Shown here in pieces: positions 10,397 through 44,455 of a stretch of 64,000 bases of DNA (its first letter is position 1; every line of letters starts with the position of its first letter). The stretch comes from Ostreococcus lucimarinus (taxonomy: Eukaryota), in NCBI GenBank assembly GCA_000092065.1, contig CP000601.1. One strand, given 5' to 3'. The notes under the pieces are model-generated. The model saw only the letters and a list, made by a program, of their open reading frames with translations. It made no database searches and had not been told where the DNA came from. The translations under genes and the position numbers were made by a program.

Positions 10397-10513
10397 GCGC
10401 GTCACGCCCCCGACGCCGTCTCCCGTCCCGTCGCGCGCGTCGACCGCGACGCCCGACGGACGACGCGCGTCGAGCGAAAAAGTCGTCCACACGAGAAAAA
10501 AACGATCAACTCA

Positions 10514-12391
10514 ATGGTTCGCAAGTGGCCGTCGAACGCGATTTTATGGTCTCGGCGACCGACCGCGCCTTTGCCGACGACGAATTACGGGCGCGCGACG
10601 TCACTGGACGTCCCCGCGGGCGACGGCGCGATGATGTCGCGCGCGTCCGTGGACGCGGTGCGCGGCGCGCGACTCGGCGCGCGACTCGGTGCGCTCGCGA
10701 TGCGGGCGAGAGCGACGCCGGGAGCGATCAAACACGCGCGGAGCGCGCGCGCGGTGGCGACGCGGGCGACGTACGGACGACCCGAGCGCATCGCGCGCGT
10801 GAAGGGAAACGACGGGGGGGCGTCGCGCGTGGGCGAGGCGTTGGAACTGCGAGGGTGGGCGCGATCGGTGCGGACGCAGAAGGGAATGGCGTTCATCGAC
10901 CTGAACGATGGGAGCGCGATCTCGGGGATGCAAGCGGTGGTGAACGAGGGAAGCGCGGCGTGGGACGCGCTCGACGCGGGCGGCGTCTCCACGGGGGCGG
11001 CGCTCAGGGTGAAGGGGAAACTCGTGGCGAGTCCGGGAGGGAAGCAAGCGGCGGAATTGGCGGTGGAGGAGATTGATGTCATCGGAACGGCGGATCCGGA
11101 GACGTATCCGCTGCAAAAGAAGCGACACACGCTGGAATATCTTCGAAGCATCGCGCACTTGCGACCTCGCACAAACACCATCGGCGCCGTGGCTCGCGTG
11201 CGCAATCAGTTGGCGTACGCGACGCACACGTTCTTTCAAGAGCATGGGTTTTTATACGCCAACACGCCGATCATCACCGCGTCGGATTGCGAAGGCGCTG
11301 GGGAACAGTTTCAAGTGACGACGCTGTTGAACGGCTTCGGCGCCGGCGAGTGGACGACGCCGGCCTCGGTCGTGGACGAGCAAGAAGCCATGGTGAAGGC
11401 ACAGGGTGACGCGGTGAAGGCCCTGAAGGAGGCGAAGAAAGCGGGAGACGCGACGAAAGAGCAAGTTGATGAGGCCGTGGCGAAGCTTTTAGATCTCAAG
11501 GCGAGCGTCGAGGCGCTGAAGAACAATCGCCCGTCGTCCGACTTGCCGAAGAATAAGGATGGTTCCATCGACTATTCTCAAGACTTCTTCGGCAAACCGT
11601 CTTATTTGACCGTGTCTGGGCAATTGAACGGTGAAATCATGGCTTGCGCGGTCAACGACATCTACACCTTCGGTCCGACGTTCCGCGCGGAGAATAGCAA
11701 CACGTCGCGCCACCTGGCTGAGTTTTGGATGGTAGAGCCCGAACTCGCGTTCGCGGATTTGAACGACGACATGGATTGCGCAGAAGCGTACTTGAAGTAT
11801 TGCCTGAACCACGTCCTCGAGCACTGCGACGAAGATCTTGAATTCTTCGAGAAGAACATCTCCAAAGACAACCTGAGAGAGCGACTTCGAAACGTCGCGT
11901 CGCAAGAGTTTGCGCGCATCACGTACACCGAAGCCGTCGAGCACGTGTTGAACGCGAAGAAGAAGTTTGAGTTCCCAATCGAATGGGGATCGGATCTTCA
12001 GAGCGAGCACGAGCGGTACATCTCAGAAGAAGTCTTCAAAGATCGCCCCGTGATCGTGCGCGATTATCCGAAAGATATCAAGGCGTTCTACATGCGTCTC
12101 AACGACGACAACAAAACCGTCGCCGCAATGGACGTCTTGGTGCCCCGCGTTGGTGAGTTGATGGGTGGTAGCCAAAGAGAAGAACGCCTTGATGTCTTGG
12201 AGCGCCGAATCGAAGAGGTTGGTTTGGAAAAGGAGTCGTACTGGTGGTACTTAGATTTGAGACGATACGGTTCGCAGCCGCACGCCGGTTTCGGCCTCGG
12301 TTTTGAACGCCTCGTTCAGTACGTCACAGGTGTGGAGAACATTCGTGACGCCATTCCTTTCCCCCGTTACCCGGGTAGCGCTGAGTTCTAG
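10514..12391 (+). CDS. Asparagine--tRNA ligase (class II), with an N-terminal organellar presequence and an inserted WHEP-like helix.
   Basis: Anticodon-binding block (ELRGWARSVRTQKGMAFIDLNDGS), class II motifs (YLTVSGQLNGEIMACAVNDIYTFGPTFRAENSNTSRHLAEFWMVEPELAFADL; GGSQREERLDVLERR; GFGLGFERLVQYVTG). The alternative start MMSRASV is at 10631. Confidence 0.85.
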   Translation: MVRKWPSNAILWSRRPTAPLPTTNYGRATSLDVPAGDGAMMSRASVDAVRGARLGARLGALAMRARATPGAIKHARSARAVATRATYGRPERIARVKGNDGGASRVGEALELRGWARSVRTQKGMAFIDLNDGSAISGMQAVVNEGSAAWDALDAGGVSTGAALRVKGKLVASPGGKQAAELAVEEIDVIGTADPETYPLQKKRHTLEYLRSIAHLRPRTNTIGAVARVRNQLAYATHTFFQEHGFLYANTPIITASDCEGAGEQFQVTTLLNGFGAGEWTTPASVVDEQEAMVKAQGDAVKALKEAKKAGDATKEQVDEAVAKLLDLKASVEALKNNRPSSDLPKNKDGSIDYSQDFFGKPSYLTVSGQLNGEIMACAVNDIYTFGPTFRAENSNTSRHLAEFWMVEPELAFADLNDDMDCAEAYLKYCLNHVLEHCDEDLEFFEKNISKDNLRERLRNVASQEFARITYTEAVEHVLNAKKKFEFPIEWGSDLQSEHERYISEEVFKDRPVIVRDYPKDIKAFYMRLNDDNKTVAAMDVLVPRVGELMGGSQREERLDVLERRIEEVGLEKESYWWYLDLRRYGSQPHAGFGLGFERLVQYVTGVENIRDAIPFPRYPGSAEF

Positions 12392-12454: not shown

Positions 12455-13936
12455 CTACAGTAACGCCTTGCTAAGCGCTTTGAACGTGTAAAGTGATCCC
12501 GTCACGACCACGACAATCTCGTCGTCGCCGCGCGAGAGCGCTCCTTTCAAGGCCTTCTCGAAATCATCTTCTGAGGTGGGAGTCGGACCATGCGCTGGGC
12601 CGATATAAGCCTTCGCGAGCGTCTTCGCGGGCGTCGTTCGAGACGATGCGCCGGCGACTTGCATTTGAGTGCACACCACACCGACGGGATCCGCCCTGTA
12701 CAGCTCTTCAATAAATCCTCCGTGATCCTTGTCGTCCGCCATCGCTACGACGAACAAAAGTTTTCGGTCGGGATAAACCTCACGAATCGTGTTCACGAGA
12801 ACTCGAGCGGAACCTTTGGTGTGCGCGCCATCAGCAATCATCGTGGGCCCTCCACTCGTCTCAAATACTTCAAAGTTCCCCGGACTGCGCGTCGTTTCCA
12901 AGCCTCTTCGAATATCTTCCAGAGATGCGTCGATTTTGTTTTGAGCGCGAAGCCACCACAGAACACGAAGCGCAAGACTTATGTTCTCGCGCTGGTGCGG
13001 CCCAGCGAGAGGAATTCGAACGTTCGAAAGGGTGGACGCTATTTTACCATCCACTTTGATGTCGATGTCGACGTCCTGCGAAGCGATCGAGTCTTCCACG
13101 TGATACCGCACGAGACGCGTGTCTACGCATACGTTATCGATAACGTTCGCCCCACGCGCGCGGAGCGCAGTTTTCAACATTGTTGTTATTCGTTCGTCCA
13201 CGTTTGGGGCACAAAACACCGGACGACCTTTATGCGCGATGCCAGCTTTTGCGTCTACGATTGTCTCAATCGAACCGCCGAGCGCTTCGAGGTGTTCCTC
13301 ACCTATGTGTGTGATCACCGCTGCTTCTAGATTTTCTGCCGCGAGTACGTTTGTGGCGTCTCGACTTCCCCCGAGACCGACTTCCACGAGCGCTAAATCG
13401 ACGTTTGCCTTTTTAAAGTATGCAAAGGCGAGCGCCGTGAGGACTTCAAAGTACGACAACTGACCGCCCTCACGCTGTTGTGCAGACTTTATCTCTCGCT
13501 CTAAATCGCGCAGTACGTCGAGAACTTGTGCAGACGCATCACTTTCGCTACTCCGAATCCTTTCCGCCACGGTATACACGTGAGGGCTCTTATACGTGCC
13601 GATTCGTAATCCAGCGGCGCGCAGGACGCTCGCGAGCACGGAAACCGTCGTTCCTTTCCCCTTCGTTCCCGACACGTGTATCGTGTTATACGCCCTGTGT
13701 GGATCGTCAAAGTCTCGCAACAATCTATGCATGCGTCCGAGATCGAATCCGTCCGTCGTATCCGTCCCAGCGTTTCGCGGGACGCCGCTCTTTTCGTGAT
13801 TGACGAAGTCCCGCAACGCTTCGTCCACCGTCGCGAATGCGGTCGATGTGCGGGCTCGTGCGCGCGCTCTGTGCGCGAACGAGAACAAATTCTCACAGAG
13901 CTCGCGGTGTTGGCGCGAACACGCCGAGCGTCGCAT
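12455..13936 (-). CDS. FPGS: Folylpolyglutamate synthase / dihydrofolate synthase (Mur ligase family).
   Basis: The P-loop HVSGTKGKGTT, then GTYKSPHV, THIGEEHLEALGGSIETIVDAKAGIAHKGRPVF and the C-terminal Mur ligase domain. The ATG is at 13936. Confidence 0.85.
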   Translation of the reverse strand: MRRSACSRQHRELCENLFSFAHRARARARTSTAFATVDEALRDFVNHEKSGVPRNAGTDTTDGFDLGRMHRLLRDFDDPHRAYNTIHVSGTKGKGTTVSVLASVLRAAGLRIGTYKSPHVYTVAERIRSSESDASAQVLDVLRDLEREIKSAQQREGGQLSYFEVLTALAFAYFKKANVDLALVEVGLGGSRDATNVLAAENLEAAVITHIGEEHLEALGGSIETIVDAKAGIAHKGRPVFCAPNVDERITTMLKTALRARGANVIDNVCVDTRLVRYHVEDSIASQDVDIDIKVDGKIASTLSNVRIPLAGPHQRENISLALRVLWWLRAQNKIDASLEDIRRGLETTRSPGNFEVFETSGGPTMIADGAHTKGSARVLVNTIREVYPDRKLLFVVAMADDKDHGGFIEELYRADPVGVVCTQMQVAGASSRTTPAKTLAKAYIGPAHGPTPTSEDDFEKALKGALSRGDDEIVVVVTGSLYTFKALSKALL

Positions 13937-14162: not shown

Positions 14163-15134
14163 CTAGCGAGGAGGCGCTGGGGAGTTTTCCAAAATCACTC
14201 CGCCGACCTCGACGCGAGAACCACGCCCTGTGATTATCGTGTTTCTAACATTGTCTGCTATTCTGGGATCCAGTCCTGCACCATCCGCGCACGTCACTCG
14301 ACTCGATCGCGTCTCTTCCGATCCAGCCGTTCTGAAATCTCCCCAATACTCCTTGTCCCCCGGTCCGTCCGCGGAGCCAAAGTTGACGTACACCGGACTG
14401 TCAAACAACTCTGGATACGTCGCCAGTAGCTCTCTCTCGGCGTAACGCAACGTATCTAACACCAACGGTAATTTTTGACGAAACACGACCGAACGAAGGG
14501 GCGCCGCCCATCGTATCCACCAAGCCTCCTTCGCGCTCACCTGACAAAACACGTGCAAGCCGTCCTCGCGCCACTCCGCGAGCACCTCGTCTCTGAGCAA
14601 TCTCGTGTACCATATCGACGTTTGATCGTCGTTGAACGCGTCGCCTACCGTGAGCGTCAAATTCCTCGTCACATCGTTGTGCGTCAGCGTGTAACGCCGC
14701 TGCAATAAAGACTCCGGTTCCACCCGCGTCGAGCTCGCGTCGAACGCCACCGACACTCTGTCCGGGTCAAACTTCAAGGCGTCGAAAACCGCGTTCGTCG
14801 TCGTCTGCGCGCGCGCGATCGCCGTCGGTCAGTGTCACGATTCCATCGAGTCGCACTCGCGCCTTTCTCGCGCGTCGCTCGCGGTTTTAGACGTCGCCGT
14901 CCCCCCCCATCGCGCGAAAACCGCGCCTCGGACGTCCCGTCCCGTCCCGATCGACGCGCGTCGCGCGCGCGTCGCGTCGCGTCGGTCGCCGCGCACCTTC
15001 CCCCGTCCGCGCCCCTTCGCCGGCCGTCCTCGCGCGCCGGGTCCCGGTCGCCGTCCGCTCGCGTCGCGCGTCGACGTCGACGTCGACGCCCCGCTCGCGC
15101 GCGCGCGCGTCGCGAGCGCCCTATCCAGCGCCAT
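14163..15134 (-). CDS. SGR: STAY-GREEN (SGR) magnesium dechelatase. The conserved core is 14163..14757. A probable transit-peptide exon lies at 14857..15134 (or ends at 14839), with an intron of about 99 nt.
   Basis: The core RRYTLTHNDVTRNLTLTVG ... RLLRDEVLAEWRE ... LHVFCQVS ... KLPLVLDTLRYAERELLATYPELFDSPVYVNFGS is co-linear with Arabidopsis SGR1 (RTYTLTHSDITAKLTLAIS ... RLYRDEVVAEWKK ... ELPVVLKAFVHGD). The core ORF has no in-frame ATG and lacks a presequence. An ATG-initiated, same-frame ORF (14835..15134, MALDRALATRARASGASTSTS...) lies just upstream and is separated only by two TGA codons. A GTGCGA donor and a CAG acceptor in matching phase would join the two ORFs. Confidence 0.7.
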
Positions 15135-15372
15135 GGCGTCGACGGCGCGCGCGTCGCGTTCGCGCGTCGACGACGCGCGCGCGTCGACGACGCTCGCGAC
15201 TCGTCGACGACGACGTCGACGACGACGACGCGCGTCGCTGTGCCGGGCGTCGTCGCGTCGTCGGATCGTCGTCTCGTCGTCGTCCCGCGGCGTCCCGCGC
15301 GTCCGCCTCGAGCGCGAGCGCGAGCGGTCGCGAGCGGTCGCGATCGGACGATGCGACCGATGGTGCGATTGA

Positions 15373-17238
15373 ATGGATACACACGGACCACACCGATCCC
15401 ATCGACGAGTCTCGACTCGAGAACGAGTCCCTCGACGCCCGACGCGCCCCGACCGACGTCACGCGATCCGATCCGCGCGCGGCGTCGTCGCGTCGGCGTC
15501 GTCGCGTCGGCTCGTCACAGCGCGCGTCCGGGACAGCGAGCGCTCGAACGCCCGAACGCGCGAAGCGCCCGAGACGGATCCGAACGCCACGAATCCGCGC
15601 CGAGCGATCGAGCCCGCCATGCGCACCGTCGCGCGCGCGTTCGCGACGACGACGACGTCGAGCGCGAGGTGTGATTATCGCCGTCGAGCGACGACGACGC
15701 GCGCGACGACGAGCGCGGTGCGCGCGGACGCGCGGCGCGCGCGATCGGGGAGGTATGCGATCGTTCCGCGATCGATCGAGGGCGAAGGGAACGCCGCGGT
15801 CGTCGAAAGAAGCGTCGAGGGCGAGGAGGGGGAGAAGATGATGTCCCTGGAGGCGAGACGCGAGGCGCTGAGGTTGCCGCGCCCGGACGTCGCGGCGCCG
15901 GGGATGGAGGATCCGTGGAACGATGAGAAGTGGCAAAAGGTGAAGTGGACGGTGTTTCGAGACGTGGCGTACGACCTCGGACCGTTCTTTGAGAAGCATC
16001 CGGGCGGGAACTGGTTGTTGAACCTCGCCATCGGTCGCGACTGCACGGCGCTCATGGAATCCTATCACTTGCGACCAGAGGTGGCGACGGCGCGCTTCAG
16101 GATGTTACCCAAGCTCGAGGGGTTCCCGGTCGACGCCGTGGCGAAGTCACCGAGACCGAACGATTCGCCGCTGTACAACAACATCCGCAATCGCGTTCGC
16201 GAGGAACTTTTCCCGGAAGAAGGGAAGAACAAACACAGAATGGGTGGCGACCACGCGACGATAACGATTTTGTCTTTCGCCGCGTTTGCGTACGGTGTGT
16301 ACGCCACCATCCCGGGCTTTCTCTCGGGTTGCCTCCTTGGCTTAGCTGGTGCGTGGATCGGGCTCACGATTCAGCATTGCGCCAATCACGGGGCGATGTC
16401 ACCGTCGCCCGCCGTCAACGGCGTCCTCGGTTTGACGAACGATCTCATCGGCGGCTCGTCTTTGATGTGGCGATACCACCACCAGGTGAGCCACCACATT
16501 CACTGCAACGACAATGCTATGGATCAAGACGTGTACACCGCCATGCCTCTCTTGCGTTTCGACGCTCGTCGTCCCAAGGCGTGGTACCACCGCTTCCAGC
16601 ACTGGTACATGTTCTTGGCCTTTCCGTTGTTGCAGGTGGCGTTCCAAGTCGGCGACATCGTCGGTTTGTTCACTCGCGATACCGAAGGCGCAAAGCTCCA
16701 CGGGGCGACCACTTGGGAACTTGCCACCGTAGTTATCGGCAAGTTTGTGCACTTCGGTTTGTTGGCTGCACCTTTGATGAGCCACGCGGCTTCCGCCGTC
16801 GTCGCCGGCATCGTCGGTTTCATGGCGTGCCAAGGAGTCGTCCTCGCGTGTACGTTCGCGGTGAGTCACAACGTGCCCGAGGCCAAACTCCCTGAAGATA
16901 CCGGTGGAGAGGCGTGGGAAAGAGATTGGGGCGTGCAGCAGTTGGTGACTAGCGCTGACTGGGGTGGAAAGATTGGAAACTTTTTCACCGGCGGTCTGAA
17001 CTTGCAAGTCGAGCATCACCTGTTCCCGGCGATTTGCTTTGTGCACTACCCCGCGATCGCGAAAATTGTCGCGGAAGAAGCGGCGAAGATGGGCATTCCT
17101 TACTCGTCATACAGAACACTTCCCGGCATTTTCGTCGCGTTCTGGAAATTCGTCAGAGACATGGGCACGGCGGAGCAAATCGACGACGTTTTACTTCCGA
17201 AGTTCGCGAACCCGCAACTTTCGCCAGCCATCAATTAG
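15373..17238 (+). CDS. Cytochrome b5-fused front-end fatty acid desaturase with a long N-terminal organellar-type extension.
   Basis: The cyt b5 motif EKHPGGNWL, then the His boxes HCANHGA, HHQVSHHIHCN and QVEHHLFP (Q in the third box is diagnostic of front-end delta-4/5/6/8 desaturases). The first ATG is at 15373 and a transit-peptide-like alternative (MRTVARAFATTTTSS) is at 15619. Confidence 0.85.
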   Translation: MDTHGPHRSHRRVSTRERVPRRPTRPDRRHAIRSARGVVASASSRRLVTARVRDSERSNARTREAPETDPNATNPRRAIEPAMRTVARAFATTTTSSARCDYRRRATTTRATTSAVRADARRARSGRYAIVPRSIEGEGNAAVVERSVEGEEGEKMMSLEARREALRLPRPDVAAPGMEDPWNDEKWQKVKWTVFRDVAYDLGPFFEKHPGGNWLLNLAIGRDCTALMESYHLRPEVATARFRMLPKLEGFPVDAVAKSPRPNDSPLYNNIRNRVREELFPEEGKNKHRMGGDHATITILSFAAFAYGVYATIPGFLSGCLLGLAGAWIGLTIQHCANHGAMSPSPAVNGVLGLTNDLIGGSSLMWRYHHQVSHHIHCNDNAMDQDVYTAMPLLRFDARRPKAWYHRFQHWYMFLAFPLLQVAFQVGDIVGLFTRDTEGAKLHGATTWELATVVIGKFVHFGLLAAPLMSHAASAVVAGIVGFMACQGVVLACTFAVSHNVPEAKLPEDTGGEAWERDWGVQQLVTSADWGGKIGNFFTGGLNLQVEHHLFPAICFVHYPAIAKIVAEEAAKMGIPYSSYRTLPGIFVAFWKFVRDMGTAEQIDDVLLPKFANPQLSPAIN

Positions 17239-17357: not shown

Positions 17358-18392
17358 CTACACACGAATTCTCAAGTTGAGCAACTCTCGCTCGGCGCTC
17401 GTTCGATTAAACGTCACACTTTGTCCGATACTCACCGGCTCCGGGGGTGCACCACCCTCTTCGTATGCCTCGTAACTTCTTAAAGTCCCATCAGGACCGG
17501 CATACGCGCCGTCGACGTAAGAATGGCAGTTGTGCAAACCGGCGTCTGAAAGCAGCTGCTTCGCCCACGCCGCGGAACTACTGCTTCGGCTATGCAACAA
17601 GATGAGATTATCCGACGTCGGCTTGTGAAATCGGAACATCCGCACCCACTCTTCATCGTTCATATGCACTGCTTTGGGCAGATGATCCACCGGGACGTGC
17701 GTTGACCCCTCGAGTGTTCCGTAAAGCGCGCGCTCGTCAAACCTTCGAATGTCCAAAATCACTAGTCCCAGCGCATTGCCGTCGTCTCTCACCGTTTCCA
17801 GGAGAAGTAACACCGCGTCGAAGCTCAGAGCTCGATCTTTCCCTGATGAAAACACAGCGGGTTCGTCGAAGTGTGCTAGAGGTACCGCCGCGGCGAGTCC
17901 GCCGTCCACGATGGAGCACCGCGTGAATCCCAGGCTCGTCGCGAGCGCCGCGGCGTGCGACGAGCTATGCCCGTGCGTGCTCACAAAAATCATCGTCGTC
18001 CTTAAACTCGGCACGGGAATGTTTGGAAATCTCTTCTTCCACAGTGTGTTACGATTGCGCAACAAGTTCGCCAACTCTTCCGGTAAGATGTGCGTCACGG
18101 CGAGTCTGTCGCTCAGCTTCGTCACCGCCGTCGCCCCCCCGTCCTCGCTCTTCGGTCTGACGTCTAATAGCAAGTATTTCACCGGTTTCGTTTGAACCAA
18201 CATCCAAAACGCTTTCGCACTCAGCACCCCGTACGTCTGTTTGTTCAATTTCACCGTCGGTTGCGAGCTCGACGTCGTTCGCTGTCTCGCTCGATCTCTG
18301 TGCTTGGCGCTTCGCAAGACGCGCACGGACCAGGCGATGAGAGACAGACACACGGCGGTGGTTAACGAACCGCCGACGTTGGTGACGTGCAT
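17358..18392 (-). CDS. Tandem rhodanese-like domain protein with an N-terminal membrane anchor. The catalytic Cys is absent from both domains.
   Basis: Two rhodanese-type folds (LLLDVRPKSE...VSTHGHSS and ILDIRRFDE...ILLHSRSSSSAAW). A Ser sits where the active-site Cys is expected. The start MHVTNVGGSLTTAVCLSLIAW is at 18392. Confidence 0.6.
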   Translation of the reverse strand: MHVTNVGGSLTTAVCLSLIAWSVRVLRSAKHRDRARQRTTSSSQPTVKLNKQTYGVLSAKAFWMLVQTKPVKYLLLDVRPKSEDGGATAVTKLSDRLAVTHILPEELANLLRNRNTLWKKRFPNIPVPSLRTTMIFVSTHGHSSSHAAALATSLGFTRCSIVDGGLAAAVPLAHFDEPAVFSSGKDRALSFDAVLLLLETVRDDGNALGLVILDIRRFDERALYGTLEGSTHVPVDHLPKAVHMNDEEWVRMFRFHKPTSDNLILLHSRSSSSAAWAKQLLSDAGLHNCHSYVDGAYAGPDGTLRSYEAYEEGGAPPEPVSIGQSVTFNRTSAERELLNLRIRV

Positions 18393-19096
18393 GATATTCG
18401 TCCGCACGCGCGCCGCGCGCGTCCGTCTGCGGGCGCACCGCCGATCACGCGCGCGGTCGACGTGGACGCGCGTCGAGTCGATTTCGAACGAACGAACGCC
18501 AAAACGAACGCGCGTCGAGCGATTTCGTGGGCGTCTCGAGGGCGCGCAACCCTACGAAATCGTCGTCGAAAAATCACGCACTCAAAGACAATTTAGAACT
18601 ATCTGCAAACACGGTACGCGCGCGATAAACGCCGCGTCGGCCCCCGCGCGCCGCGCGCGCGAACGAAGCGACGTTCGTGGCGACCGTTGAAGCGCCGAAC
18701 CAGAGCGCGAGACCGCGCGCGCGTCACAGCGCGCGGCGAAATTTGCGAAAGCGTCCACACGAACATGCTCTCGGTTTCGACGTCGTCGCGATCGCTCGCG
18801 AGCGCACCGACGGCGCGCCGAGGATGGCGTGGGCGTCGCGGCGGGAGCAGGTTAGAAACGGTTCGACGGGCGCAAATCGGCGTCGATCTCGTCGACGCGG
18901 CGAGAAACGGGTTGGAGACGTTCGTTCAAAGGGTACGTTATCGACAAGCGCGAGATTCGGACCTAAAATCGATCGGTGCGCGCCGACAGAGCGATGTCAA
19001 GAGTGGTTTTGTTGCCTCTCGCCGCACGCTCTCGGTGAAGCAAACGAGCGCAAACGCGACGAAGATTGAGGCTGACCGATTTATTTTCATTCGTAG

Positions 19097-20597
19097 GCAT
19101 CGAAGGCGTTACCAATACTGCTTGGACACGACGATACTGTCGAAATCGAGCGGGAAAACGAGTCGTTAGACGCCGCGAAGACAAACTCGAGAACGCGAGC
19201 CGCAGAGCTCACCCAGGCGCGCGTGGAGAGTTTGCTTAAGCCCGACGCGGGAAGAGATGATATATTCCACGCCGCGGGTCAAGGGTTAGCTGGTGTCGGA
19301 GGCGACGTCGTAGCGATTGGTTGGTGGGACTCACGCGGGGTAGAAGGCACGTCCCCGCAACTTGAATTGCAGGCGCTCAACGACGGCGCCAGGGCACAAC
19401 TCATAGGGGTGGTGCTCTTGGCGCTTAAAGAAGGGCTCGAGAACATAGAAGAGAGCAACGGAAGCTTGCGTGAACTCATTCAAACAGTGGCTAGGGTCTC
19501 CGCGAATGATTGGATGAATTCGATGGCGCTTGACATCGGCGCCAAGGAGCGGTGCGCTCGGGTGGTTCGCGTGGCCGGAGACGTGGCCGATGAAAAAATT
19601 TGGCAGAACGGTACGTATGATCTCGCTTTCGTCTTCGACCGAGCTGATCGCGTTTTTCACAGGAGAAATACTTGAAGGAAGTAAGATGGCTTTGTATGCC
19701 GGAGTGATGATGTATTTGGCCAAGGTACGTCTAACTTTCGCTGAGCTTCACAAATATTTATTTAATTATTCTGAATTATTTCAATCATCGCAGAACTCCA
19801 ATCGAACGGACAATATTTCCGAAAGCGTTCAAGTCGTTGAGAAATCGACGAAAATTAACACTCAAGACGTCGAACCGGTGCTGGAATTCTTCAATTCTCC
19901 TATGGCTTCGGTGTGCGTTTCGGTTTTGCAGGACGTGGTATTAAATATTGCCGACTCCGTGGCGTGTGCTTACGTGACGTGTGCGCGTGAAAGCGGGCTA
20001 CAAGCGCCTGTAAATGGTGGAGTCGCACGTACGGAGGACACAGGAGCGGTCGTGCGCATTCCACCGTTCAGAGACGCGTTGAGCGTTCGCTTGAAGAGCA
20101 CACGTTCGTTGGAAAAATTTCGAAATGAAACATCATTGCGCACGTGGCTTGCACGCAATTATTACGACGTGGTCGCGATGTACGAAGATTGGCATAAATT
20201 GTGGGGCATGAATGCAAACGGCGAGGTACGTATCTCCGCGCGACGGCGCGTTTGAATTAATTTTTTAATTTGTCGCTGAAATTAATTATTTTTCACACAG
20301 CTCGTGACGAGGAAAATTCACGTTTGTCGCCAGCCAGAGCTCGCAAAGGTGAAGGGATTTCGTTTAGCTGTTTCTATGATAATAGAACTCGCTGATGTGA
20401 GCCTTCCCTTGTTCAGAAGCGCACTGAACAACTGCAGCCGGGTGGCTTCTTGGTTACTGGTGACATTAATTGGTGCGTTTGAAATTAATTATTTTGTGCA
20501 TCGACTTACTCTCTCTAACGCAGGCCGTTCGCTTGGATTGGTGTATCGTGGAATCAAAGAAAGCATGGACCCTCAAAACAGAGTGAAATTCACGTAG
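19097..20597 (+). CDS. Multi-exon gene of unknown function in an AT-richer block. Proposed exons are 19097?-19610, 19663-19724, 19794-20225, 20301-20472 and 20524-20597. The 5-prime end is unresolved.
   Basis: Three track ORFs (19223.., 19530.., 20304..) are joined in frame by introns with canonical signals: GGTACGTATG...TTTTCACAG (52 nt), AAGGTACGTC...ATCATCGCAG (69 nt), GAGGTACGTATC...TTTCACACAG (75 nt) and an optional GTGCGT...TAACGCAG (51 nt). The exon at 19223 has no ATG, and the acceptor-like tttattttcattcgtag at about 19096 suggests at least one further upstream exon. Confidence 0.55.
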
Positions 20598-20715
20598 TAG
20601 ACGACAGGCAGCACGGGGCGATCGCTTCTACGCTGGGGAAAAAATTAATAATAAATGACTCCCGTCATATGTCACTACAGCACTGTAAAATCTAATGAGG
20701 AGAAAACGTCTCATG

Positions 20716-22362
20716 CTAATCGTCTTCCTCGCTATCCTCTTCCTCGTCGTCTTCCTCGTCCTCGTCTTCGTCGTTATCGTCGGTTTCGTAATCTACTTCA
20801 TCGTCCTCCTCGTCTTCCTCCTCGTCTGCGCTGGCTGACTTTTTCGGCGCAGGTTCGGAGTCTTCATCCTCACCTGGGTTCACGAAGCCGTCTTCCAACA
20901 CCCAGCCGTGCTGTAGGAGTAACTCATACACACGAATAGCCTTGAGTGGGTCTACTTTGAACATATTCCGAACGTGATTTCTGTTGAGCGGCTTTTCGGA
21001 CTTGAGACCCTCTCGCATCAACTCCACCTTCATCGAGAGATACTGCACAGGCAATAAGCGACAGCTCCTGCACAACTCCTTTTCGTCGTCGTTCAAAAGG
21101 TCTACGCCTGGAAGATCGGCGAGATCAAGTGACAAGTACATTCGACGGCGAGGACCTAAGCTCGACGTACGAGGCGTCGGGATCACGGATACCGTCTTGT
21201 CTTCGTCGTTCATGCGAGTCAACTGCTCATTGATTTGTGTGGCATCTCGCACGATGAACTTGTTCGCTCTGGCTATGTTCTTGCTAGTTGGATGCTCGAT
21301 CGCGTGTAGACGAGCGAACTCCGTCTCACGACGACGCTTCTCCAAATCGTAATCCTCGCCCTCTGCGATGGTATGAATACCATTGCGTCTGTACTCTTTC
21401 AGTTCGGTGATGCGGGTTCGGATTCGGTGCTCCGCGGCGAGACCCTCGAGCAAGACGTCGTACTCGGTACTCGTGAGAAAGCGTGCAAATATACGCATGG
21501 TGCCGTGTAAGTCGCGCTCGTATTGTGAACGCTTCTTTTCCACGTTTTGTTGCTTTTTCACGTTCAGCAGATTGCGTTCGAGAATGAATTGTTTTCTTCT
21601 CGCTCGTTCTTGAAGCCGGCTGTTGTAGATTTCAATCATTCGCAGCTTCATCTGGACGTCTTCTTCGGTGTCGTTTTCGCGAAATTCCATCTCCGCCAGG
21701 GGAAGTTCGGCATCCATGTCGTATTCGGGATCGAACTCATTGCGCTTGATGTTGTAACCTGTGAGTTCCTGCACGTTGCCCTCCGTCTTCACTGCGTTCG
21801 GGTTAGCAAGCGATTCGAGAAGCTTCTCCTCCTCCTCCACATCCTTATTTTCGTTCGCCTTTTGCTCCGCCTCCGCTTTGAGCTCGTCTGATGTCATACG
21901 CGCGACGCCTTTTCCTAAAATCTTCGACATATCCGGTAACGGCGCGCAAGGAGACTTGACGTAGACTTCAAAATAGTGCGCGTGACACTGCGCGCGCGTC
22001 TTCGTCCCGACGTGTTCGCTCACCTCGGTCCAGTTCCCCAACCCGAACATCTCCACTGCCTCCAGCAATAACAACTCTTCGTCAGCCCCCCAATCTCGCG
22101 TGAACAGCGGAAACGACATGTTGTCGATGACGTGATACTGATGATACGCCTTGTGCGGGTGCGGCTCCACGCCGACCGCGAAGCACTCCGTGCACAGATC
22201 CACGTTTGCGCACTCCGCGCACCGTACGCGCACCACGTTCGAGATGTCCTTTTGGCAATAGTTACAGTTAAACAGTGCGCACGACTCCCCGTTCCCACTC
22301 AGCTTCGTCATCGCGTTTTCCGTCGCCACCCGTCGCCGTTTCGGCACGAGCGCGCTCGCCAT
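20716..22362 (-). CDS. ADA2: Transcriptional adaptor ADA2, with ZZ zinc finger, SANT and SWIRM domains and an acidic C-terminal tail.
   Basis: CNYCQKDISNVVRVRCAECANVDLCTECFAVGVEPHPHKAYHQYHV (ZZ); DWGADEELLLLEAVEMFGLGNWTEVSEHVGTKTRAQCHAHY (SANT); IRVYELLLQHGWV (SWIRM). The ATG is at 22362. Confidence 0.9.
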   Translation of the reverse strand: MASALVPKRRRVATENAMTKLSGNGESCALFNCNYCQKDISNVVRVRCAECANVDLCTECFAVGVEPHPHKAYHQYHVIDNMSFPLFTRDWGADEELLLLEAVEMFGLGNWTEVSEHVGTKTRAQCHAHYFEVYVKSPCAPLPDMSKILGKGVARMTSDELKAEAEQKANENKDVEEEEKLLESLANPNAVKTEGNVQELTGYNIKRNEFDPEYDMDAELPLAEMEFRENDTEEDVQMKLRMIEIYNSRLQERARRKQFILERNLLNVKKQQNVEKKRSQYERDLHGTMRIFARFLTSTEYDVLLEGLAAEHRIRTRITELKEYRRNGIHTIAEGEDYDLEKRRRETEFARLHAIEHPTSKNIARANKFIVRDATQINEQLTRMNDEDKTVSVIPTPRTSSLGPRRRMYLSLDLADLPGVDLLNDDEKELCRSCRLLPVQYLSMKVELMREGLKSEKPLNRNHVRNMFKVDPLKAIRVYELLLQHGWVLEDGFVNPGEDEDSEPAPKKSASADEEEDEEDDEVDYETDDNDEDEDEEDDEEEDSEEDD

Positions 22363-22487
22363 GGCGCCGAATGCGATGCCGAACGCCGATGCCGATGCGT
22401 CGCGTTACCTCCGCGTCCGCGTTCCCGTCGCGCGCGTCCTCGACGGTCGTGCGCGCGCTCACTCGCGTGCGTTCACGCGCGACTCGC

Positions 22488-22489
22488 GC

Positions 22490-22539
<50 letters not shown>

Positions 22540-22680: not shown

Positions 22681-23954
22681 ATGGCGACTCAAATGCAGCT
22701 CAGAGGCGTGCTCAAGGGGTGCGTCGCGCGAATCGATGATCCGAGCGCGCGTCGCGTCGCGTCGACGGCGAACGCGCGGCGAACCGATCGTTCGTGGAAT
22801 AGGGTCTGCGCCATCGAACGAGGCGGACGTTGACGCTCGCGGCGGCGGCGCGCGGCGATGGGACGCGCGACGACGGCGACGCGTTCGTGCGATGATTATT
22901 TCACGCGTCGAACGCGCGTCGTCTCGAGCGCGTGACCGTTCACGCGAAACGGACTCGAGCTCGACGAGCTCGATCACGACGTCGAACGACGACACTAACC
23001 CACACGTTTTTTTCATTTCCGCGCAGGCACGAAAACTGGGTCACGTCCATCGCGACTCCGTTGGATAACTCTGACATTCTCTTGTCGTCCTCGCGAGACA
23101 AGACGGTGATCCTTTGGAACCTGACGCGCGAGGAAGAGAACTACGGTTACCCGCGCCGATCGCTTCACGGACACTCGCACTTCGTGCAAGACGTCGTCAT
23201 CTCCTCGGACGGGCAATTCGCGCTCTCGGGGTCTTGGGACGGCACCCTTCGATTGTGGGACCTTAACACCGGTACCACCACCCGACGCTTTGTCGGACAC
23301 ACCAAGGATGTCCTTTCGGTGGCTTTCTCCGTGGACAACCGCCAAATCGTCTCCGGCTCCCGGGATAAGACGATCAAGTTGTGGAACACGCTCGGCGAGT
23401 GCAAGTACACGATTCAAGACGCCGACGCGCACTCCGAGTGGGTGTCGTGCGTGCGCTTCTCCCCGGTCACCTCCAACCCGATCATCGTGTCTGGGGGCTG
23501 GGATAAGCTCGTCAAGGTCTGGAACCTCACCAACTGCAAGATTCGCACCAACCTTGTTGGTCACACCGGCTACATCAACGCCGTCACCGTCTCTCCGGAC
23601 GGTTCCTTGTGCGCCTCCGGCGGCAAGGATGGCGTCGCCATGCTTTGGGATCTCGGCGAGGGCAAGCGATTGTACTCCCTCGATGCGGGTGACATCATTT
23701 ACGGCTTGTGCTTCTCCCCCAACCGCTACTGGTTGTGCGCGGCGACCGAGTCCTGCGTCAAGATTTGGGACCTCGAATCCAAGTCCATCGTCGACGAGCT
23801 CCGCCCGGAGTTCCCGCCGGTTGGCAAGAAGTCCCAACAACCGTACTGCACCTCCCTCCAATGGTCGGCGGACGGTTCCACCCTCTACACGGGCTACACC
23901 GATAACGTCATTCGCGTTTGGTCGGTCGGTTCCGTGGGCACCGGCATGATGTAA
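22681..23954 (+). CDS. RACK1: RACK1 (receptor for activated C kinase 1; G-beta-like WD40 protein). Two exons: 22681..22718 and 23027..23954, with an intron 22719..23026 (308 nt).
   Basis: Exon 2 is nearly identical to human RACK1 ([98 protein letters not shown]...). The conserved N-terminus [13 protein letters not shown] is encoded 308 nt upstream. A GTGCGT donor follows the G codon in phase 2, and the acceptor ttttcatttccgcgcag sits before GHENWVT. The spliced product begins [24 protein letters not shown]. Confidence 0.9.
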
Positions 23955-24879: not shown

Positions 24880-25011
24880 CGCGAGCGAACGACGCGCGCG
24901 AGTGTCGATCGATCGGCCCCGAATCCCAATCGCGCCATCTGTTCATCCATCCATCCACGCATCCATTCTTCTCTCCGCGGTCACATCGCGACGTCGGCGC
25001 GGTCGAGGGCG

Positions 25012-27615
25012 ATGCGAGGCGGACGACGCGACGCGATGCGCGCGCTCGCGCGACGATGCGCGGGCGCGACGACGGGCGCGACGACGGGCGCGACGACGAC
25101 GACGACGACGACGACGACGGCGCGGCGGTTACCGCGCGCGCGCGAGCGACGGGTCGAGCGGGACGCGGGACGCCGCGCGCTGGCGACGCGGGCGGCGCGG
25201 GACGTCGAACTGACGTGCGCCGCGTTCGCGGTGTGGGGGGCGAACACCGCGGTCGGGAAGACGCTGGTGTCGGGAGGACTGGCGCGCGCGGCGCGGAGCG
25301 CGGAGGCGGGGACGCTCTTCGTGAAACCCGTGCAGACGGGATTCCCAGAAGATTCAGACGCCGCGTTCGTGGCGCGCGTGAGCGGTGGCGTGGAGAGCAT
25401 GGGCGAACACGCGGCGGTGGCGGCGGGAGAAACGGCGAGGAAAGGATTAGAGGGCGATCGAGGGGCGTGGGCGCACACCGAGTTTGCGTGGCGACGCCCC
25501 GCGGGGCCGCACGTGAGCGCGGCGGAGGAGGGGAGAGGCGTTTTAGACGATGACATCGTGCGAGCGACGTCGAGATATTTGAGAGAATTCGCGGAAAAAA
25601 TGCGAGCGAACGAATCGGGGCAGCAGCGAGCGTTGGCGCTCGTCGAAACCGCGGGAGGGGTGGCGAGTCCGGGGCCGTCGGGAACGCTGCAATGCGAGCT
25701 TTTGCGCGGGCTACGATTGCCAGCCATACTCGTGGGTGACGGGCGTTTGGGCGGGATATCTGCCACCACGGCCGCGTACGAATCACTGCACGCGAGAGGG
25801 TACGACATCGTCGCCATCGTCATGGCGGACGATGATGGTTTGGCCAATCACAAAGCCATGGCAAAGATTTTGCCGAGCGAAACCCGCGTCTGGGCGCTTC
25901 CGCCTCTGCCCCCAGAAGGACAAGCGGACGCTTGGCTCGAAGACTCAAAGCACACGTTCGACGATTTACTGAAATACATCACAAAATGGCACGACGATCG
26001 CATCAAAACTCTGCAAAGTCTTCCAGACGAGGCTCTGACGAAGATTTGGTGGCCGTTTACGCAGCACGCGATGGTGGAGCGCGACGCCGTCACGGTGATC
26101 GATGGGAGATATGGTGAAGATTTCGCAATCTACGCCCAAAACACGCACTCATCGAAAGATGGCTCCATAGTACTTCGCTTTGATGGTTCAGCGAGTTGGT
26201 GGACGCAAGGTTTGAGTCCAGAATTGCAGCAAGAGTTGGTTCGCACCGCGACGCATGCGGCGGGACGATTCGGGCACGCGATGTTTCCAGAAAACGTGCA
26301 CCAGCCCGCCGTGGACGCGACGACGGCATTATTAGAAGGACCTGGGAAAGGTTGGGCAGCTAGAGCATTTTATTCCGACAACGGATCGACTGCGACAGAG
26401 GTTGGGTTGAAAATGGCTTTTCGCAAGTTTTACGTCGACGCAGGCTTTGTGTCTAAAGACGGCAATCAGAGAGCGAAAGATCTCGTCAACAAAGGAGCCG
26501 ATGACTTACCTCCGCTGCGAATAATAGCATTGGATGGTTCGTATCACGGTGATACTCTCGGTGCGATGGATATGCAATCACCGAGCGTTTTTACGGGTCC
26601 AATGCAAACGCCCTGGTACCAACCTCGCGGACTGTTCCTTCAGCCTCCGAGTTTAGCGATCAGAGAAGGACGTTGGAACGTGGCGTTGCCGCGTGATGGA
26701 TTATTGAACGACGGCGATCGACTCTTCCGCGAAGGCAAAGATGTGGATGAGAACACCAGTTGGACTAGCAAGGAGGCGGCTTTCAACATCGCTGCGCGTC
26801 TCGACAGCCCGCTCGCAAAAGAATACAAAATTGCGATCGACAAAGTCTTAGAACGCGCCGCGAAAGACGCCAAGGATAATAACATGGGTCACGTCGGGGC
26901 TTTAATCATGGAACCCGTGCTTCACGGTGCAGGTGGGATGGTTTTGATTGATCCGTTGTTTCAAAACATTCTCATGAAGTCGTGCCGCGAGCGAAAGATT
27001 CCAGTCGTCTTGGACGAGGTATTTGCTGGCATTTGGCGATTAGGCACGGAAGGTGCGTGGGAAATCATAGGCGAAAAACCCGATATTTCGTGCTACGCAA
27101 AACTTCTCACTGGTGGGCTCATTCCCATGTCAGCCACGCTCGCGACGGCGGATGTCTTCGACGCTTTTTACGGCCCTGGAAAAGCCCAGGGCTTGTTACA
27201 CGGGCACTCGTACACGGCATACCCCATGGGATGCGCCGTGGCGGCGAAAGCGCTTTCTATGTACAAAGACCCCGCGAAAAATCGCAACGTGATCGTCTCA
27301 AAGTCTTCGAGTACGGGCGAGCCTACGTCGGTGCTTCGCGAGCTCTGGGACGAGGACGCGTTGAAGAAAATTTCCACTTTGAGCAACGTTCGCCGAGTCA
27401 TCGGTCAGGGTTGTGTCCTCGCCGTCGAGCTCGAGGTCGAAGGTGAAGGTGGTTATAGCTCCAACGCCGCTCGAGACGTCGTCATGCGTCTTCTTCCCCA
27501 CTCCATCCAAGCGCGTCCTCTGGGTAACGTCGTCTACCTCATGTGCGCGCCGACGACGTCCAAAGACGCGTGCGACGTCCTCTTGAGCGCGCTCGCGACA
27601 GAGCTCGCGGCGTGA
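25012..27615 (+). CDS. BIO3-BIO1: Bifunctional dethiobiotin synthetase / 7,8-diaminopelargonate aminotransferase (BIO3-BIO1 fusion, as in land plants).
   Basis: N-terminal DTBS P-loop VWGANTAVGKTLVSGGLARAA. Class III aminotransferase C-terminal half (GSTATEVGLKMAFRKF; LIMEPVLHGAGGMVLIDPLFQ; DEVFAGIWRLG). The track start at 24646 overlaps CSN7 on the other strand, and the first sensible ATG (MRGGRRDAMRALARR) is at 25012. Confidence 0.85.
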   Translation: MRGGRRDAMRALARRCAGATTGATTGATTTTTTTTTARRLPRARERRVERDAGRRALATRAARDVELTCAAFAVWGANTAVGKTLVSGGLARAARSAEAGTLFVKPVQTGFPEDSDAAFVARVSGGVESMGEHAAVAAGETARKGLEGDRGAWAHTEFAWRRPAGPHVSAAEEGRGVLDDDIVRATSRYLREFAEKMRANESGQQRALALVETAGGVASPGPSGTLQCELLRGLRLPAILVGDGRLGGISATTAAYESLHARGYDIVAIVMADDDGLANHKAMAKILPSETRVWALPPLPPEGQADAWLEDSKHTFDDLLKYITKWHDDRIKTLQSLPDEALTKIWWPFTQHAMVERDAVTVIDGRYGEDFAIYAQNTHSSKDGSIVLRFDGSASWWTQGLSPELQQELVRTATHAAGRFGHAMFPENVHQPAVDATTALLEGPGKGWAARAFYSDNGSTATEVGLKMAFRKFYVDAGFVSKDGNQRAKDLVNKGADDLPPLRIIALDGSYHGDTLGAMDMQSPSVFTGPMQTPWYQPRGLFLQPPSLAIREGRWNVALPRDGLLNDGDRLFREGKDVDENTSWTSKEAAFNIAARLDSPLAKEYKIAIDKVLERAAKDAKDNNMGHVGALIMEPVLHGAGGMVLIDPLFQNILMKSCRERKIPVVLDEVFAGIWRLGTEGAWEIIGEKPDISCYAKLLTGGLIPMSATLATADVFDAFYGPGKAQGLLHGHSYTAYPMGCAVAAKALSMYKDPAKNRNVIVSKSSSTGEPTSVLRELWDEDALKKISTLSNVRRVIGQGCVLAVELEVEGEGGYSSNAARDVVMRLLPHSIQARPLGNVVYLMCAPTTSKDACDVLLSALATELAA

Positions 27616-44266: not shown

Positions 44267-44310
<44 letters not shown>

Positions 44311-44426: not shown

Positions 44427-44455
44427 GTCGGCGATCGCGCGCCGCGCGCGCCGCG

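What the first reader, a model, noticed from the sequence alone, without database searches (positions are those of the whole stretch)
19097..20650. One AT-rich, intron-dense gene of unknown function set among GC-rich intronless neighbours
Between 19.1 and 20.6 kb the GC content drops. The introns are about 35-40 percent GC, against more than 60 percent around them. At least four short introns (52, 69, 75 and optionally 51 nt) with near-identical signals (GGTACGT donors, TTTCACAG/CATCGCAG acceptors) stitch three track ORFs into one reading frame. Nearly every neighbouring gene is intronless. The protein (...LKEGLENIEESNGSLRELIQTVARVSANDWMNSMALDIGAKERCARVVRVAGDVADEKIWQNGEILEGSKMALYAGVMMYLAKNSNRTDNISESVQVVEK...WHKLWGMNANGELVTRKIHVCRQPELAKVKGFRLAVSMIIELADVSL...) matches nothing I recognise. 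The 5-prime end is open: the exon at 19223 has no ATG and is preceded by a clean acceptor, so more exons lie in 18.4-19.1 kb. The contrast in composition and intron content could mean a different evolutionary origin, as in the outlier-chromosome regions known in these algae or a horizontally acquired gene, or just a locally atypical gene.
Basis: seen in the sequence. Interest (0 to 1): 0.6.

Follow-up and report, generated by a model that had tools for sequence, protein, structure and literature searches.

The report
Verified five-intron Ycf55-like algal gene
This is a real, expressed Ostreococcus gene for a conserved plastid-lineage protein of still unknown role (DUF3685/Ycf55 family); its short AT-rich introns and lowish GC are an inherited quirk of the Ostreococcus genus, not a sign of foreign DNA.

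Summary
A fifth intron (164 nt) and an upstream ATG exon complete a 6-exon, 473-aa gene (18765-20597, + strand). A spliced transcript contig skips all five introns at 100% identity. The protein matches Pfam DUF3685, the C-terminal domain of Ycf55 and of cyanobacterial CheY-like regulators. It has no receiver domain and starts with a transit-peptide-like N-terminus.

The gene keeps the same neighbours (rhodanese, DUF3685, ADA2) in O. tauri and in Micromonas-type genomes. Its dinucleotide signature is typical of the window. Horizontal transfer and an outlier-chromosome origin are therefore not supported.

The GC drop is real but modest: CDS GC3 is 0.59 against 0.72 ± 0.06, and two neighbours are as low. 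It merges with a general 5'-to-3' GC decline and a trough shared with the convergent ADA2 gene.

One thing is mildly unusual. None of the five introns has the canonical Ostreococcus ACTGAC branch site. Three are short and 30-37% GC, like BOC1 (big outlier chromosome) introns. All five are conserved in position in three Ostreococcus genomes but absent from about 30 Micromonas-type orthologues. Introns 3-5 share a conserved AT-rich motif.

Verdict: an ordinary, already annotated gene with an interesting intron footnote.

The parts
18449..18764 (+). Minimum 5' UTR
   Evidence: Transcript contig L001 starts at window position 18449. I saw no ATG upstream of 18765 in this stretch when reading the sequence. 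The contig may merge neighbouring transcripts, so the true start is uncertain.
18765..18932 (+). Exon 1. It holds the ATG at 18765 and encodes an S/T/R/A-rich, transit-peptide-like N-terminus.
   Evidence: The same architecture is seen in the MMETSP transcript P0002.
18933..19096 (+). Intron 1: 164 nt, GC 0.53, donor GTACGT, GGCTGACC 21 nt from the 3' end, acceptor TCGTAG.
   Evidence: Transcript break. Same position in O. tauri and L010.
19097..19610 (+). Exon 2
19611..19662 (+). Intron 2: 52 nt, GC 0.50, donor GTACGT, CTGAT, acceptor CACAG.
19663..19724 (+). Exon 3 (62 nt)
19725..19793 (+). Intron 3: 69 nt, GC 0.30, donor GTACGT, TTCTGAATT, acceptor TCGCAG.
19756..19783 (+). Conserved AT-rich block of intron 3: ATTTATTTAATTATTCTGAATTATTTCA.
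   Evidence: The block is identical in L010, although amino-acid identity between the two species is only 68% and 4-fold sites are near saturation.
19794..20225 (+). Exon 4
20226..20300 (+). Intron 4: 75 nt, GC 0.37, donor GTACGT. It holds two AATTAATT palindromes, in the blocks 20251-20272 and 20276-20296. Acceptor CACAG.
20301..20472 (+). Exon 5
20473..20523 (+). Intron 5: 51 nt, GC 0.37, donor GTGCGT, AT-rich block TTTGAAATTAATTATTTTG at 20478-20496, acceptor ACGCAG. It is obligatory.
   Evidence: Transcript break. Splicing restores the invariant LIGRSLGLVYRGI motif. The orthologous introns are 52 nt long, so retaining them would shift the frame.
20524..20597 (+). Exon 6, with the stop codon TAG at 20595-20597.
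20082..20558 (+). Region encoding the Pfam DUF3685 match (aa 345-461). It is interrupted by introns 4 and 5.
   Evidence: Coordinates were computed from the exon table.

Best explanation
SHOWN. The locus is a normal, vertically inherited, expressed nuclear gene of Ostreococcus lucimarinus. It has six exons on the + strand (18765-20597) and encodes a 473-aa protein whose conserved C-terminal part is a DUF3685 domain. DUF3685 is the domain found at the C-terminus of plastid-encoded Ycf55 in red algae and haptophytes, and of cyanobacterial CheY-like response regulators.

INFERRED (function). The protein is a receiver-less, nucleus-encoded descendant of that cyanobacterial family. It is probably imported into the plastid through its S/T/R/A-rich N-terminal presequence and acts there as a helical regulatory or effector module. 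Its biochemical role is unknown.

LOW GC. Three components add up to the low GC:
- three short introns at 30-37% GC;
- a CDS with weaker GC3 (0.59) than its neighbours;
- the window-wide 5'-to-3' GC decline, which makes a shared trough where this gene's 3' end meets that of ADA2.

INTRONS. All five introns are genuine spliceosomal introns, but none is of the canonical non-BOC Ostreococcus type: none has the ACTGAC branch motif, and four have GTACGT donors. Introns 3-5 fit the size and GC profile of BOC1 introns (short, AT-rich). Their positions, lengths and AT-rich cores are conserved in three Ostreococcus genomes. Micromonas-type orthologues in the same syntenic slot are intronless and GC-rich, and a streptophyte orthologue has introns elsewhere.

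INFERRED (origin and splicing). The introns, and the local AT enrichment, arose in the Ostreococcus stem lineage rather than being ancestral or foreign. Gain is only slightly favoured over en-bloc loss in Micromonas. The conserved AT/U-rich tracts probably help intron definition in place of the missing strong branch-site consensus.
For: - Gene model and frame.
- Splicing: a contig from SRR28369099 covers 18449-22512 and skips exactly the five introns. An identical 473-aa protein is on record as P0001. MMETSP transcript P0002 (473 aa, 71% identity) has the same architecture.
- Family: PF12452 at 68.9 bits against a cut-off of 25. There are 378 relatives at E <= 1e-3. The meaning of DUF3685 and Ycf55 is taken from PMC4226036.
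- No receiver domain: DUF3685 is the only Pfam hit at E <= 1, and the (low-confidence) model is all-alpha.
- Synteny.
- Intron conservation: O. tauri and L010 share all five positions, with lengths 164/165/168, 52/55/53, 69/88/69, 75/77/78 and 51/52/52 nt.
- Intronless orthologues: about 30 Micromonas-type loci give one contiguous match, and those genes are not GC-poor.
- Closterium introns lie at other positions.
- Composition.
- No foreign signature: dinucleotide delta* is 0.081 against a window mean of 0.075, and 34% of equal-length windows are as deviant or more.
- Intron class: 0 of 5 introns contain ACTGAC, against 87% of EST-confirmed non-chromosome-2 introns. The genome-wide intron mean is 37% AT with a median length of 111 nt. 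BOC1 definition.
- Motif: AATTAATT occurs only in introns 4 and 5 in the 64-kb window (expected 0.3). Elsewhere it is found only in the orthologous introns of O. tauri and L010.
Against: - Function is not established. AlphaFold models are poor (pLDDT 57.5 and 52.8). There is no fold or sequence match in the PDB and no NCBIfam name.
- Plastid targeting rests only on the composition of the N-terminus.
- I could not place the window on a named chromosome. That it lies outside BOC1 is inferred from GC, synteny, intron-poor neighbours and a recorded contig length of 321,799 bp.
- Gain versus loss of the introns is not polarised. No Bathycoccus or other chlorophyte gene structure was obtained, and en-bloc loss in Micromonas through a processed copy would fit equally well.
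- The gene is not unique in GC3: two of 35 neighbours are as low.
- The sample type of SRR28369099 was not visible. That it is RNA is inferred from the absence of all five introns.
Confidence: 0.85

Rival explanations
1. The five introns are ancestral to Mamiellales and are retained only in Ostreococcus. The Micromonas lineage lost all of them at once, for example by recombination with a processed cDNA copy. The low GC of the Ostreococcus gene would then be the older state.
For: The introns are absent en bloc from about 30 Micromonas-type orthologues at the same syntenic position, which a single retro-processing event would explain. Intron-poor genomes are known for intron loss.
Against: None of the four alignable Ostreococcus intron positions coincides with the four Closterium introns. 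An introner-bearing Micromonas-type orthologue has introns at yet other positions. No outgroup with the same positions was found.
Confidence: 0.35
2. The gene lies in, or was recently moved from, the big outlier chromosome's BOC1 region. That would explain both its low GC and its short AT-rich introns.
For: Introns 3-5 meet the BOC1 criteria for size and GC, and all five lack the ACTGAC motif typical of non-chromosome-2 introns.
Against: The window GC of 0.599 equals the normal genome level. Neighbours are intronless or carry single canonical introns. Gene order is collinear from Ostreococcus to Micromonas, whereas BOC1 lacks collinearity. Introns 1 and 2 are not AT-rich.
Confidence: 0.05
3. 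The gene was acquired horizontally, or belongs to a foreign island.
For: It has lower GC and GC3 than most neighbours, and its codon-usage distance ranks 2nd of 36. The family is ultimately of cyanobacterial origin.
Against: The dinucleotide signature is typical of the window. It carries spliceosomal introns. Synteny and orthologues are conserved throughout Mamiellales and streptophytes. The cyanobacterial link is ancient endosymbiotic transfer shared by the green lineage.
Confidence: 0.02
4. Introns 3-5 are decayed copies of one mobile, introner-like element that inserted several times into this gene in the Ostreococcus ancestor.
For: Introns 3-5 share (C/T)TGAA(A)TTAATTATTT cores. Intron 5's 5' part (GTGCGTTTGAAATTAATTATTTT) resembles an internal segment of intron 4 (GCGCGTTTGAATTAATTTTTT). 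Introner elements exist in related Micromonas and have invaded an orthologue of this very gene.
Against: The similarity is short, about 15-20 nt, and AT-rich. No further copies occur in 64 kb of the window or about 18 kb of other Ostreococcus sequence. Conservation across species is equally explained by constraint on splicing signals.
Confidence: 0.1

Closest known systems
Ycf55 and cyanobacterial CheY-like response regulators carrying DUF3685 (Pfam PF12452)
   Same: Both have the C-terminal DUF3685 domain, including the FRNE...W..N...ED block and the invariant LIGRSLGLVYRGI helix. The family is restricted to cyanobacteria and the plastid lineage.
   Different: This gene is nuclear, with spliceosomal introns and a presequence-like N-terminus. 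It has no receiver domain. Only profile positions 73-188 of 192 are matched. The region N-terminal to the domain is conserved only among green-lineage relatives.
BOC1 introns of Mamiellales (short AT-rich introns of the big outlier chromosome)
   Same: Introns 3-5 are 51-75 nt long and 30-37% GC. The donors are of GTRNGT type and there is no ACTGAC branch consensus.
   Different: The gene sits in a normal-GC, collinear, intron-poor region. Introns 1 and 2 are 50-53% GC, and intron 1 is 164 nt long.
Canonical non-chromosome-2 Ostreococcus introns (GTGCGTG ... GACTGACG ... CGCAG)
   Same: They are spliceosomal GT-AG introns. CTGAC or CTGAT lies 15-21 nt from the 3' end in introns 1 and 2, and introns 3 and 5 have CGCAG acceptors.
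   Different: None of the five has ACTGAC. Four of the five donors are GTACGT. These introns are much shorter and more AT-rich than the genome average of 37% AT and median 111 nt. The RACK1-like intron at 22719-23026 in the window is the canonical contrast.
Micromonas introner elements
   Same: Both involve several introns within one gene that share sequence. An orthologue of this gene in an introner-bearing Micromonas-type genome carries at least five copies of a roughly 140-nt repeated intron.
   Different: Here the shared core is only about 15-20 nt, no other copies were seen, and the introns are AT-rich. Introner elements prefer GC-rich regions.

Membership tests
Pfam DUF3685 (PF12452) / Ycf55-like proteins | Match to the family HMM above the curated gathering score | tested here: met
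   68.9 bits against a cut-off of 25, E = 6.3e-19, aa 345-461.
Pfam DUF3685 (PF12452) / Ycf55-like proteins | Conserved C-terminal motifs shared with distant members | tested here: met
   Invariant F357 R358 N359, W366, N370, E379 D380 and L448-I460 (LIGRSLGLVYRGI) across Mamiellales, Spirogloea, Closterium and a fern.
Ycf55-type CheY-like response regulator | N-terminal receiver (CheY-like) domain | tested here: not met
   No Response_reg hit at E <= 1. The predicted secondary structure is all-alpha plus one hairpin, although the model is of low confidence.
Ycf55 proper (plastid gene) | Encoded in the plastid genome | tested here: not met
   It is a nuclear locus with five spliceosomal introns, flanked by nuclear genes.
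BOC1 introns (Mamiellales) | Length below 75 nt | tested here: inconclusive
   Lengths of 52, 69 and 51 nt meet the criterion, 75 nt is borderline and 164 nt fails. Definition.
BOC1 introns (Mamiellales) | GC below 43% | tested here: inconclusive
   Met by introns 3-5 (0.30, 0.37, 0.37). Not met by introns 1 and 2 (0.53, 0.50).
BOC1 introns (Mamiellales) | Location inside the low-GC BOC1 region of the big outlier chromosome | tested here: not met
   The test is indirect. Window GC is 0.599, neighbours are intron-poor, and gene order is collinear with O. tauri and Micromonas, whereas BOC1 lacks collinearity. The chromosome name could not be checked.
Canonical non-chromosome-2 Ostreococcus introns | ACTGAC / GACTGACG branch motif 20-35 nt from the 3' splice site | tested here: not met
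   0 of 5 introns contain ACTGAC. 87% of EST-confirmed non-chromosome-2 introns do.
Canonical non-chromosome-2 Ostreococcus introns | GTGCGTG donor consensus | tested here: not met
   Four donors are GTACGT and one is GTGCGTT.
Introner elements | Many near-identical intron copies dispersed in the genome | tested here: inconclusive
   Only a 15-20-nt core is shared by introns 3-5. No other copies were found in the 64 kb plus the Ostreococcus loci held. The whole genome was not available.
Horizontally transferred / foreign island | Atypical oligonucleotide signature, broken synteny and patchy distribution | tested here: not met
   delta* is 0.081 against 0.075 ± 0.030. Synteny and orthologues are conserved.

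The most novel reading that the evidence does not exclude
This gene is an isolated island of BOC1-type introns on an ordinary, collinear chromosome region. Several short AT-rich introns lack the canonical branch consensus and carry a conserved palindromic AT-rich core (AATTAATT) of common origin or common function. They were gained in the Ostreococcus stem lineage together with a local GC decline. If so, the two intron classes of Mamiellales would be gene-autonomous rather than chromosome-bound. That would give a compact natural test case for how one spliceosome handles both classes.
Probability: 0.25. Interest if true: 0.5.

Novelty: already known. Interest (0 to 1): 0.27.

Why it matters
Mostly it settles the finding. 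The locus is a genuine gene of a known but uncharacterised family, already in the public annotation, and not foreign DNA.

Three modest gains follow:
- A corrected full-length model. The NCBI O. lucimarinus model lacks the first 198 residues, and two O. tauri models read through intron 5.
- The gene is identified as a nuclear, receiver-less relative of plastid Ycf55.
- It is a clean example of BOC1-like introns outside the outlier chromosome. The introns are conserved across Ostreococcus but absent from syntenic Micromonas orthologues. This bears on the open question of why Mamiellales keep two intron classes.

Tried and rejected
- Structure route. AlphaFold2 on the full protein with 30 homologues gave pLDDT 57.5, and the C-terminal domain alone gave 52.8. 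Foldseek against the PDB found nothing at E <= 0.001. PDB profile searches found nothing. The afdb50 library was unavailable. No fold-based function can therefore be claimed.
- NCBIfam: no hit.
- Rfam on 18300-20800: no hit, so the introns do not host a known RNA.
- Heuristic intron scan of the whole window: too noisy to count the neighbours' introns. I relied instead on ORF continuity, the O. tauri gene table and inspected examples.
- The three GGTACGT sites outside the gene (2565, 30700, 36899) are not introns.
- Bathycoccus orthologue: not found among protein hits or metagenome loci. L043 turned out to be another GC-rich alga with an intronless gene.
- Chromosome assignment: the look-up for P0004 was not on record, and Derelle 2006 is not held.
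- Alternative isoform retaining intron 5 or intron 3: rejected. The orthologous introns are 52 and 88 nt long and would shift the frame.
- The bacterial promoter/terminator scan is irrelevant for a eukaryotic gene.
- Caution on a literature table. The intron counts for 'Chrom 2' (1748) and 'Non-Chrom 2' (396) in Table 3 of PMC2483917, as held, look swapped judging from the percentages. I used only the percentages.
Full report
**What is there.** Reading 17.8-21.6 kb and translating all frames gives a six-exon gene on the + strand. The exons are 18765-18932, 19097-19610, 19663-19724, 19794-20225, 20301-20472 and 20524-20597. The introns are 164, 52, 69, 75 and 51 nt long. The CDS is 1422 nt and encodes 473 aa. 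The '19223 exon' really begins at the acceptor at 19097. The predicted upstream part consists of one intron and an ATG exon.

**Transcript evidence.** The same 473-aa protein is on record as P0001. Its source is a 3653-nt Logan contig from run SRR28369099 that carries the CDS uninterrupted. Against the window, this contig aligns in six blocks at 99.8-100% identity. The breaks are the five intron boundaries. I could not see the run's metadata; that it is RNA is inferred from the missing introns. The contig continues without break through the convergent ADA2 gene to 22512, which shows that ADA2 is intronless and suggests that the two 3' ends overlap or nearly do. An MMETSP transcript from another Ostreococcus (P0002, 473 aa, 71% identity) has the same architecture. 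The NCBI model for O. lucimarinus CCE9901 (P0004, 275 aa) starts at Met199 and already splices introns 2-5. The window is therefore O. lucimarinus, and the intron-rich gene is already annotated, though 5'-truncated.

**Is intron 5 optional?** No. Splicing it restores ...LLVTLIGRSLGLVYRGI..., which is invariant from Mamiellales to a fern. The orthologous introns in O. tauri and L010 are 52 nt long and would shift the frame if retained. Two O. tauri models (P0003, P0005) read through this intron and have a spurious C-terminus.

**What the protein is.** Pfam gives DUF3685 (PF12452) at E = 6e-19 and 68.9 bits, over aa 345-461. An exhaustive phmmer search finds 378 cluster representatives at E <= 1e-3. 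The only paper in the library that mentions DUF3685 describes it as the C-terminal, presumed effector, domain of roughly 550-aa cyanobacterial CheY-like regulators and of plastid-encoded Ycf55 in red algae and haptophytes (PMC4226036).

The Ostreococcus protein has no receiver domain. DUF3685 is its only Pfam hit at E <= 1. The low-confidence AlphaFold model is all-helical, with one hairpin (aa 379-401) and a long terminal helix. The first ~30 residues are rich in S, T, R and A and contain no acidic residue, as in the orthologues. I read this as a plastid transit peptide, which is an inference.

No structure-based function could be obtained: model pLDDT was 57.5 and 52.8, and there were no PDB fold or sequence matches. 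My committed reading is a nucleus-encoded, plastid-targeted, receiver-less derivative of the Ycf55 family that acts as a helical regulatory module. The family assignment is shown; the localisation and the role are inferred.

**Origin.** Gene order is conserved. In O. tauri the row is Staygreen/FPGS, cytochrome-b5 desaturase, rhodanese, DUF3685, ADA2. The same order appears in Micromonas-type contigs of up to 1.4 Mb. The neighbours in the window are ordinary housekeeping genes. The dinucleotide signature of the gene (delta* 0.081) is typical: the window mean is 0.075 ± 0.030, and 34% of equal-length windows deviate as much or more. Orthologues exist in Spirogloea, Closterium and a fern. Recent horizontal transfer is therefore rejected. 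The cyanobacterial ancestry is ancient endosymbiotic transfer.

**Composition.** Window GC is 0.599. The gene span is 0.518 against 0.601 for the rest of the window. CDS GC is 0.540 and GC3 is 0.591, against 0.724 ± 0.063 for 35 neighbouring ORFs (z = -2.1). Two neighbours are as low: the glucan-water-dikinase-like ORF at 0.554 and the FPGS-like ORF at 0.595.

There is a general 5'-to-3' gradient in the window. Mean GC3 falls from 0.79 in the first 300 nt to about 0.65 after 900 nt, and 500-nt GC peaks of 0.70-0.77 sit at the 5' ends of genes. This gene runs about 0.10-0.14 below its neighbours in every bin. The trough at 19.5-22.0 kb is shared with the 3' part of ADA2. So the contrast is real but modest, and it is not confined to this gene.

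The low GC is specific to Ostreococcus. O. tauri shows it as well, with 0.474 and 0.458 in the 3' half and a gene GC of 0.520 against 0.584 for the rest. In Micromonas-type genomes the orthologue is as GC-rich as its surroundings or richer: 0.737 against 0.707, and 0.630 against 0.539.

**The introns.** Published work on O. lucimarinus (PMC2483917) reports that 87% of EST-confirmed introns outside chromosome 2 contain ACTGAC and 66.5% contain GACTGACG. Their donors follow GTGCGTG and their acceptors CGCAG. The average intron is 37% AT with a median length of 111 nt. Chromosome-2 introns have weak branch signals and GTRNGT donors. BOC1 introns are defined as shorter than 75 nt, below 43% GC, and located in BOC1 (PMC3879977 and PMC3491373).

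In this gene, none of the five introns contains ACTGAC. Four donors are GTACGT. Introns 3-5 are 51-75 nt long and 30-37% GC. The window also holds a canonical contrast: the RACK1-like gene's 308-nt intron, with GC 0.65 and GTGCGT...CTAAC...CGCAG signals. Several GACTGACG sites lie upstream of YAG near the 5' ends of genes. This gene's introns are therefore atypical for their location, and three of them look like BOC1 introns. The region itself does not look like BOC1, given its normal GC, its collinearity and its intron-poor neighbours.

**Evolution of the introns.** All five positions are shared by O. tauri and by a third Ostreococcus-type genome (L010; 68% amino-acid identity). Lengths and GC are nearly the same in all three. 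Four-fold degenerate sites are only 38-46% identical, so the species are deeply diverged. About 30 Micromonas-type orthologues give a single contiguous match, meaning they are intronless.

The Closterium orthologue has four introns, and none is at an Ostreococcus position. One GC-rich Micromonas-type lineage (L044, L045) has at least nine introns at other positions. At least five of them are copies of a roughly 140-nt repeat, and others hold telomere-like CCCTAAA runs.

Intron content in this gene is therefore lineage-specific. I slightly favour gain in the Ostreococcus stem, but I cannot exclude en-bloc loss in Micromonas, because no Bathycoccus or other chlorophyte structure was obtained.

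**The AT-rich core.** AATTAATTATT, allowing one mismatch, occurs four times in 64 kb, always in introns 3-5 (expected 0.23). The palindrome AATTAATT occurs three times, all in introns 4 and 5 (expected 0.30). Among all fetched loci it is found only in O. tauri introns 4 and 5 and in L010 intron 4. Intron 3's block ATTTATTTAATTATTCTGAATTATTTCA is identical in L010. Introns 3-5 align between species above shuffled controls, with z of 2-4.

In introns 3 and 4 the core follows a CTGAA 19-21 nt from the acceptor, so a role as branch region plus U-rich tract is the simplest reading. In intron 5 the core sits next to the donor, which that reading does not explain. A common origin of these introns is possible but weakly supported.

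**Verdict.** It is ordinary in origin, belongs to a known domain family and is already annotated. The residual interest is the cluster of BOC1-like introns, conserved across Ostreococcus, on a normal chromosome region.

Noticed in passing
L045:1-2700 (also L044): A GC-rich Micromonas-type orthologue of this gene is split by at least nine introns. At least five of them are copies of one repeat of about 140 nt (GGTA/GGGCGGTGCAGGTTGACCC...GCTTTCAAA...TGCGCCGC), which looks like an introner element. Other introns contain telomere-like (CCCTAAA)n runs.
   Followed up: partly
L045:1480-1745 and L008:4100-4440: The introner-bearing Micromonas-type gene and the Closterium gene both have a phase-0 intron at the same place, FRNE^V. 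This could be an ancestral intron or a parallel insertion at an AG|GT protosplice site.
   Followed up: no
L002:7727-7785 (O. tauri); window 18765-19358: Public gene models need correction. O. tauri models P0003 and P0005 (581 and 600 aa) read through intron 5 and end in a spurious Ser-rich tail. The NCBI O. lucimarinus model P0004 (275 aa) lacks exon 1 and most of exon 2.
   Followed up: yes
window, whole (e.g. 1001-1500, 4501-5500, 10001-11000, 15001-15500, 25001-25500, 41001-42000, 44001-45000): Sharp GC peaks (0.70-0.77) sit at the 5' ends of genes and at divergent promoters. There is a general 5'-to-3' fall of GC3, from 0.79 in the first 300 nt of ORFs to about 0.65 beyond 900 nt. AT-rich islands lie at convergent 3' ends.
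   Followed up: partly
window 20598-20715: Only 118 nt separate the stop codons of the convergent DUF3685 and ADA2 genes. One transcript contig (L001) runs through both, which suggests overlapping 3' UTRs or merged assembly of antisense transcripts.
   Followed up: no
window 22491-22534: A perfect (CGT)14.7 microsatellite lies in the GC-rich region between the ADA2 (-) and RACK1-like (+) genes.
   Followed up: no
window 22682-23040: The RACK1-like gene has a short first exon ([13 protein letters not shown]) followed by a canonical 308-nt GC-rich intron (22719-23026: GTGCGT...CACTAAC...CGCAG). It makes a useful contrast to the introns of the DUF3685 gene.
   Followed up: partly
window 29834-31603 (-) and 12455-13936 (-): Two intronless ORFs have GC3 as low as the DUF3685 gene: a glucan-water-dikinase-like C-terminal part (0.554) and an FPGS/Mur-ligase-like ORF (0.595). 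Low GC3 in this window is therefore not tied to introns.
   Followed up: partly
window 20237-20250: A GC-only hairpin (CGCGCGACGGCGCG) sits in the 5' half of AT-rich intron 4. O. tauri and L010 have GC-rich patches at the same place, but with different sequence.
   Followed up: no
PMC2483917, Table 3: As held in the library, the numbers of introns given for 'Chrom 2' (1748) and 'Non-Chrom 2' (396) appear swapped. The percentages only add up to the genome-wide 41% ACTGAC if most introns lie outside chromosome 2.
   Followed up: no
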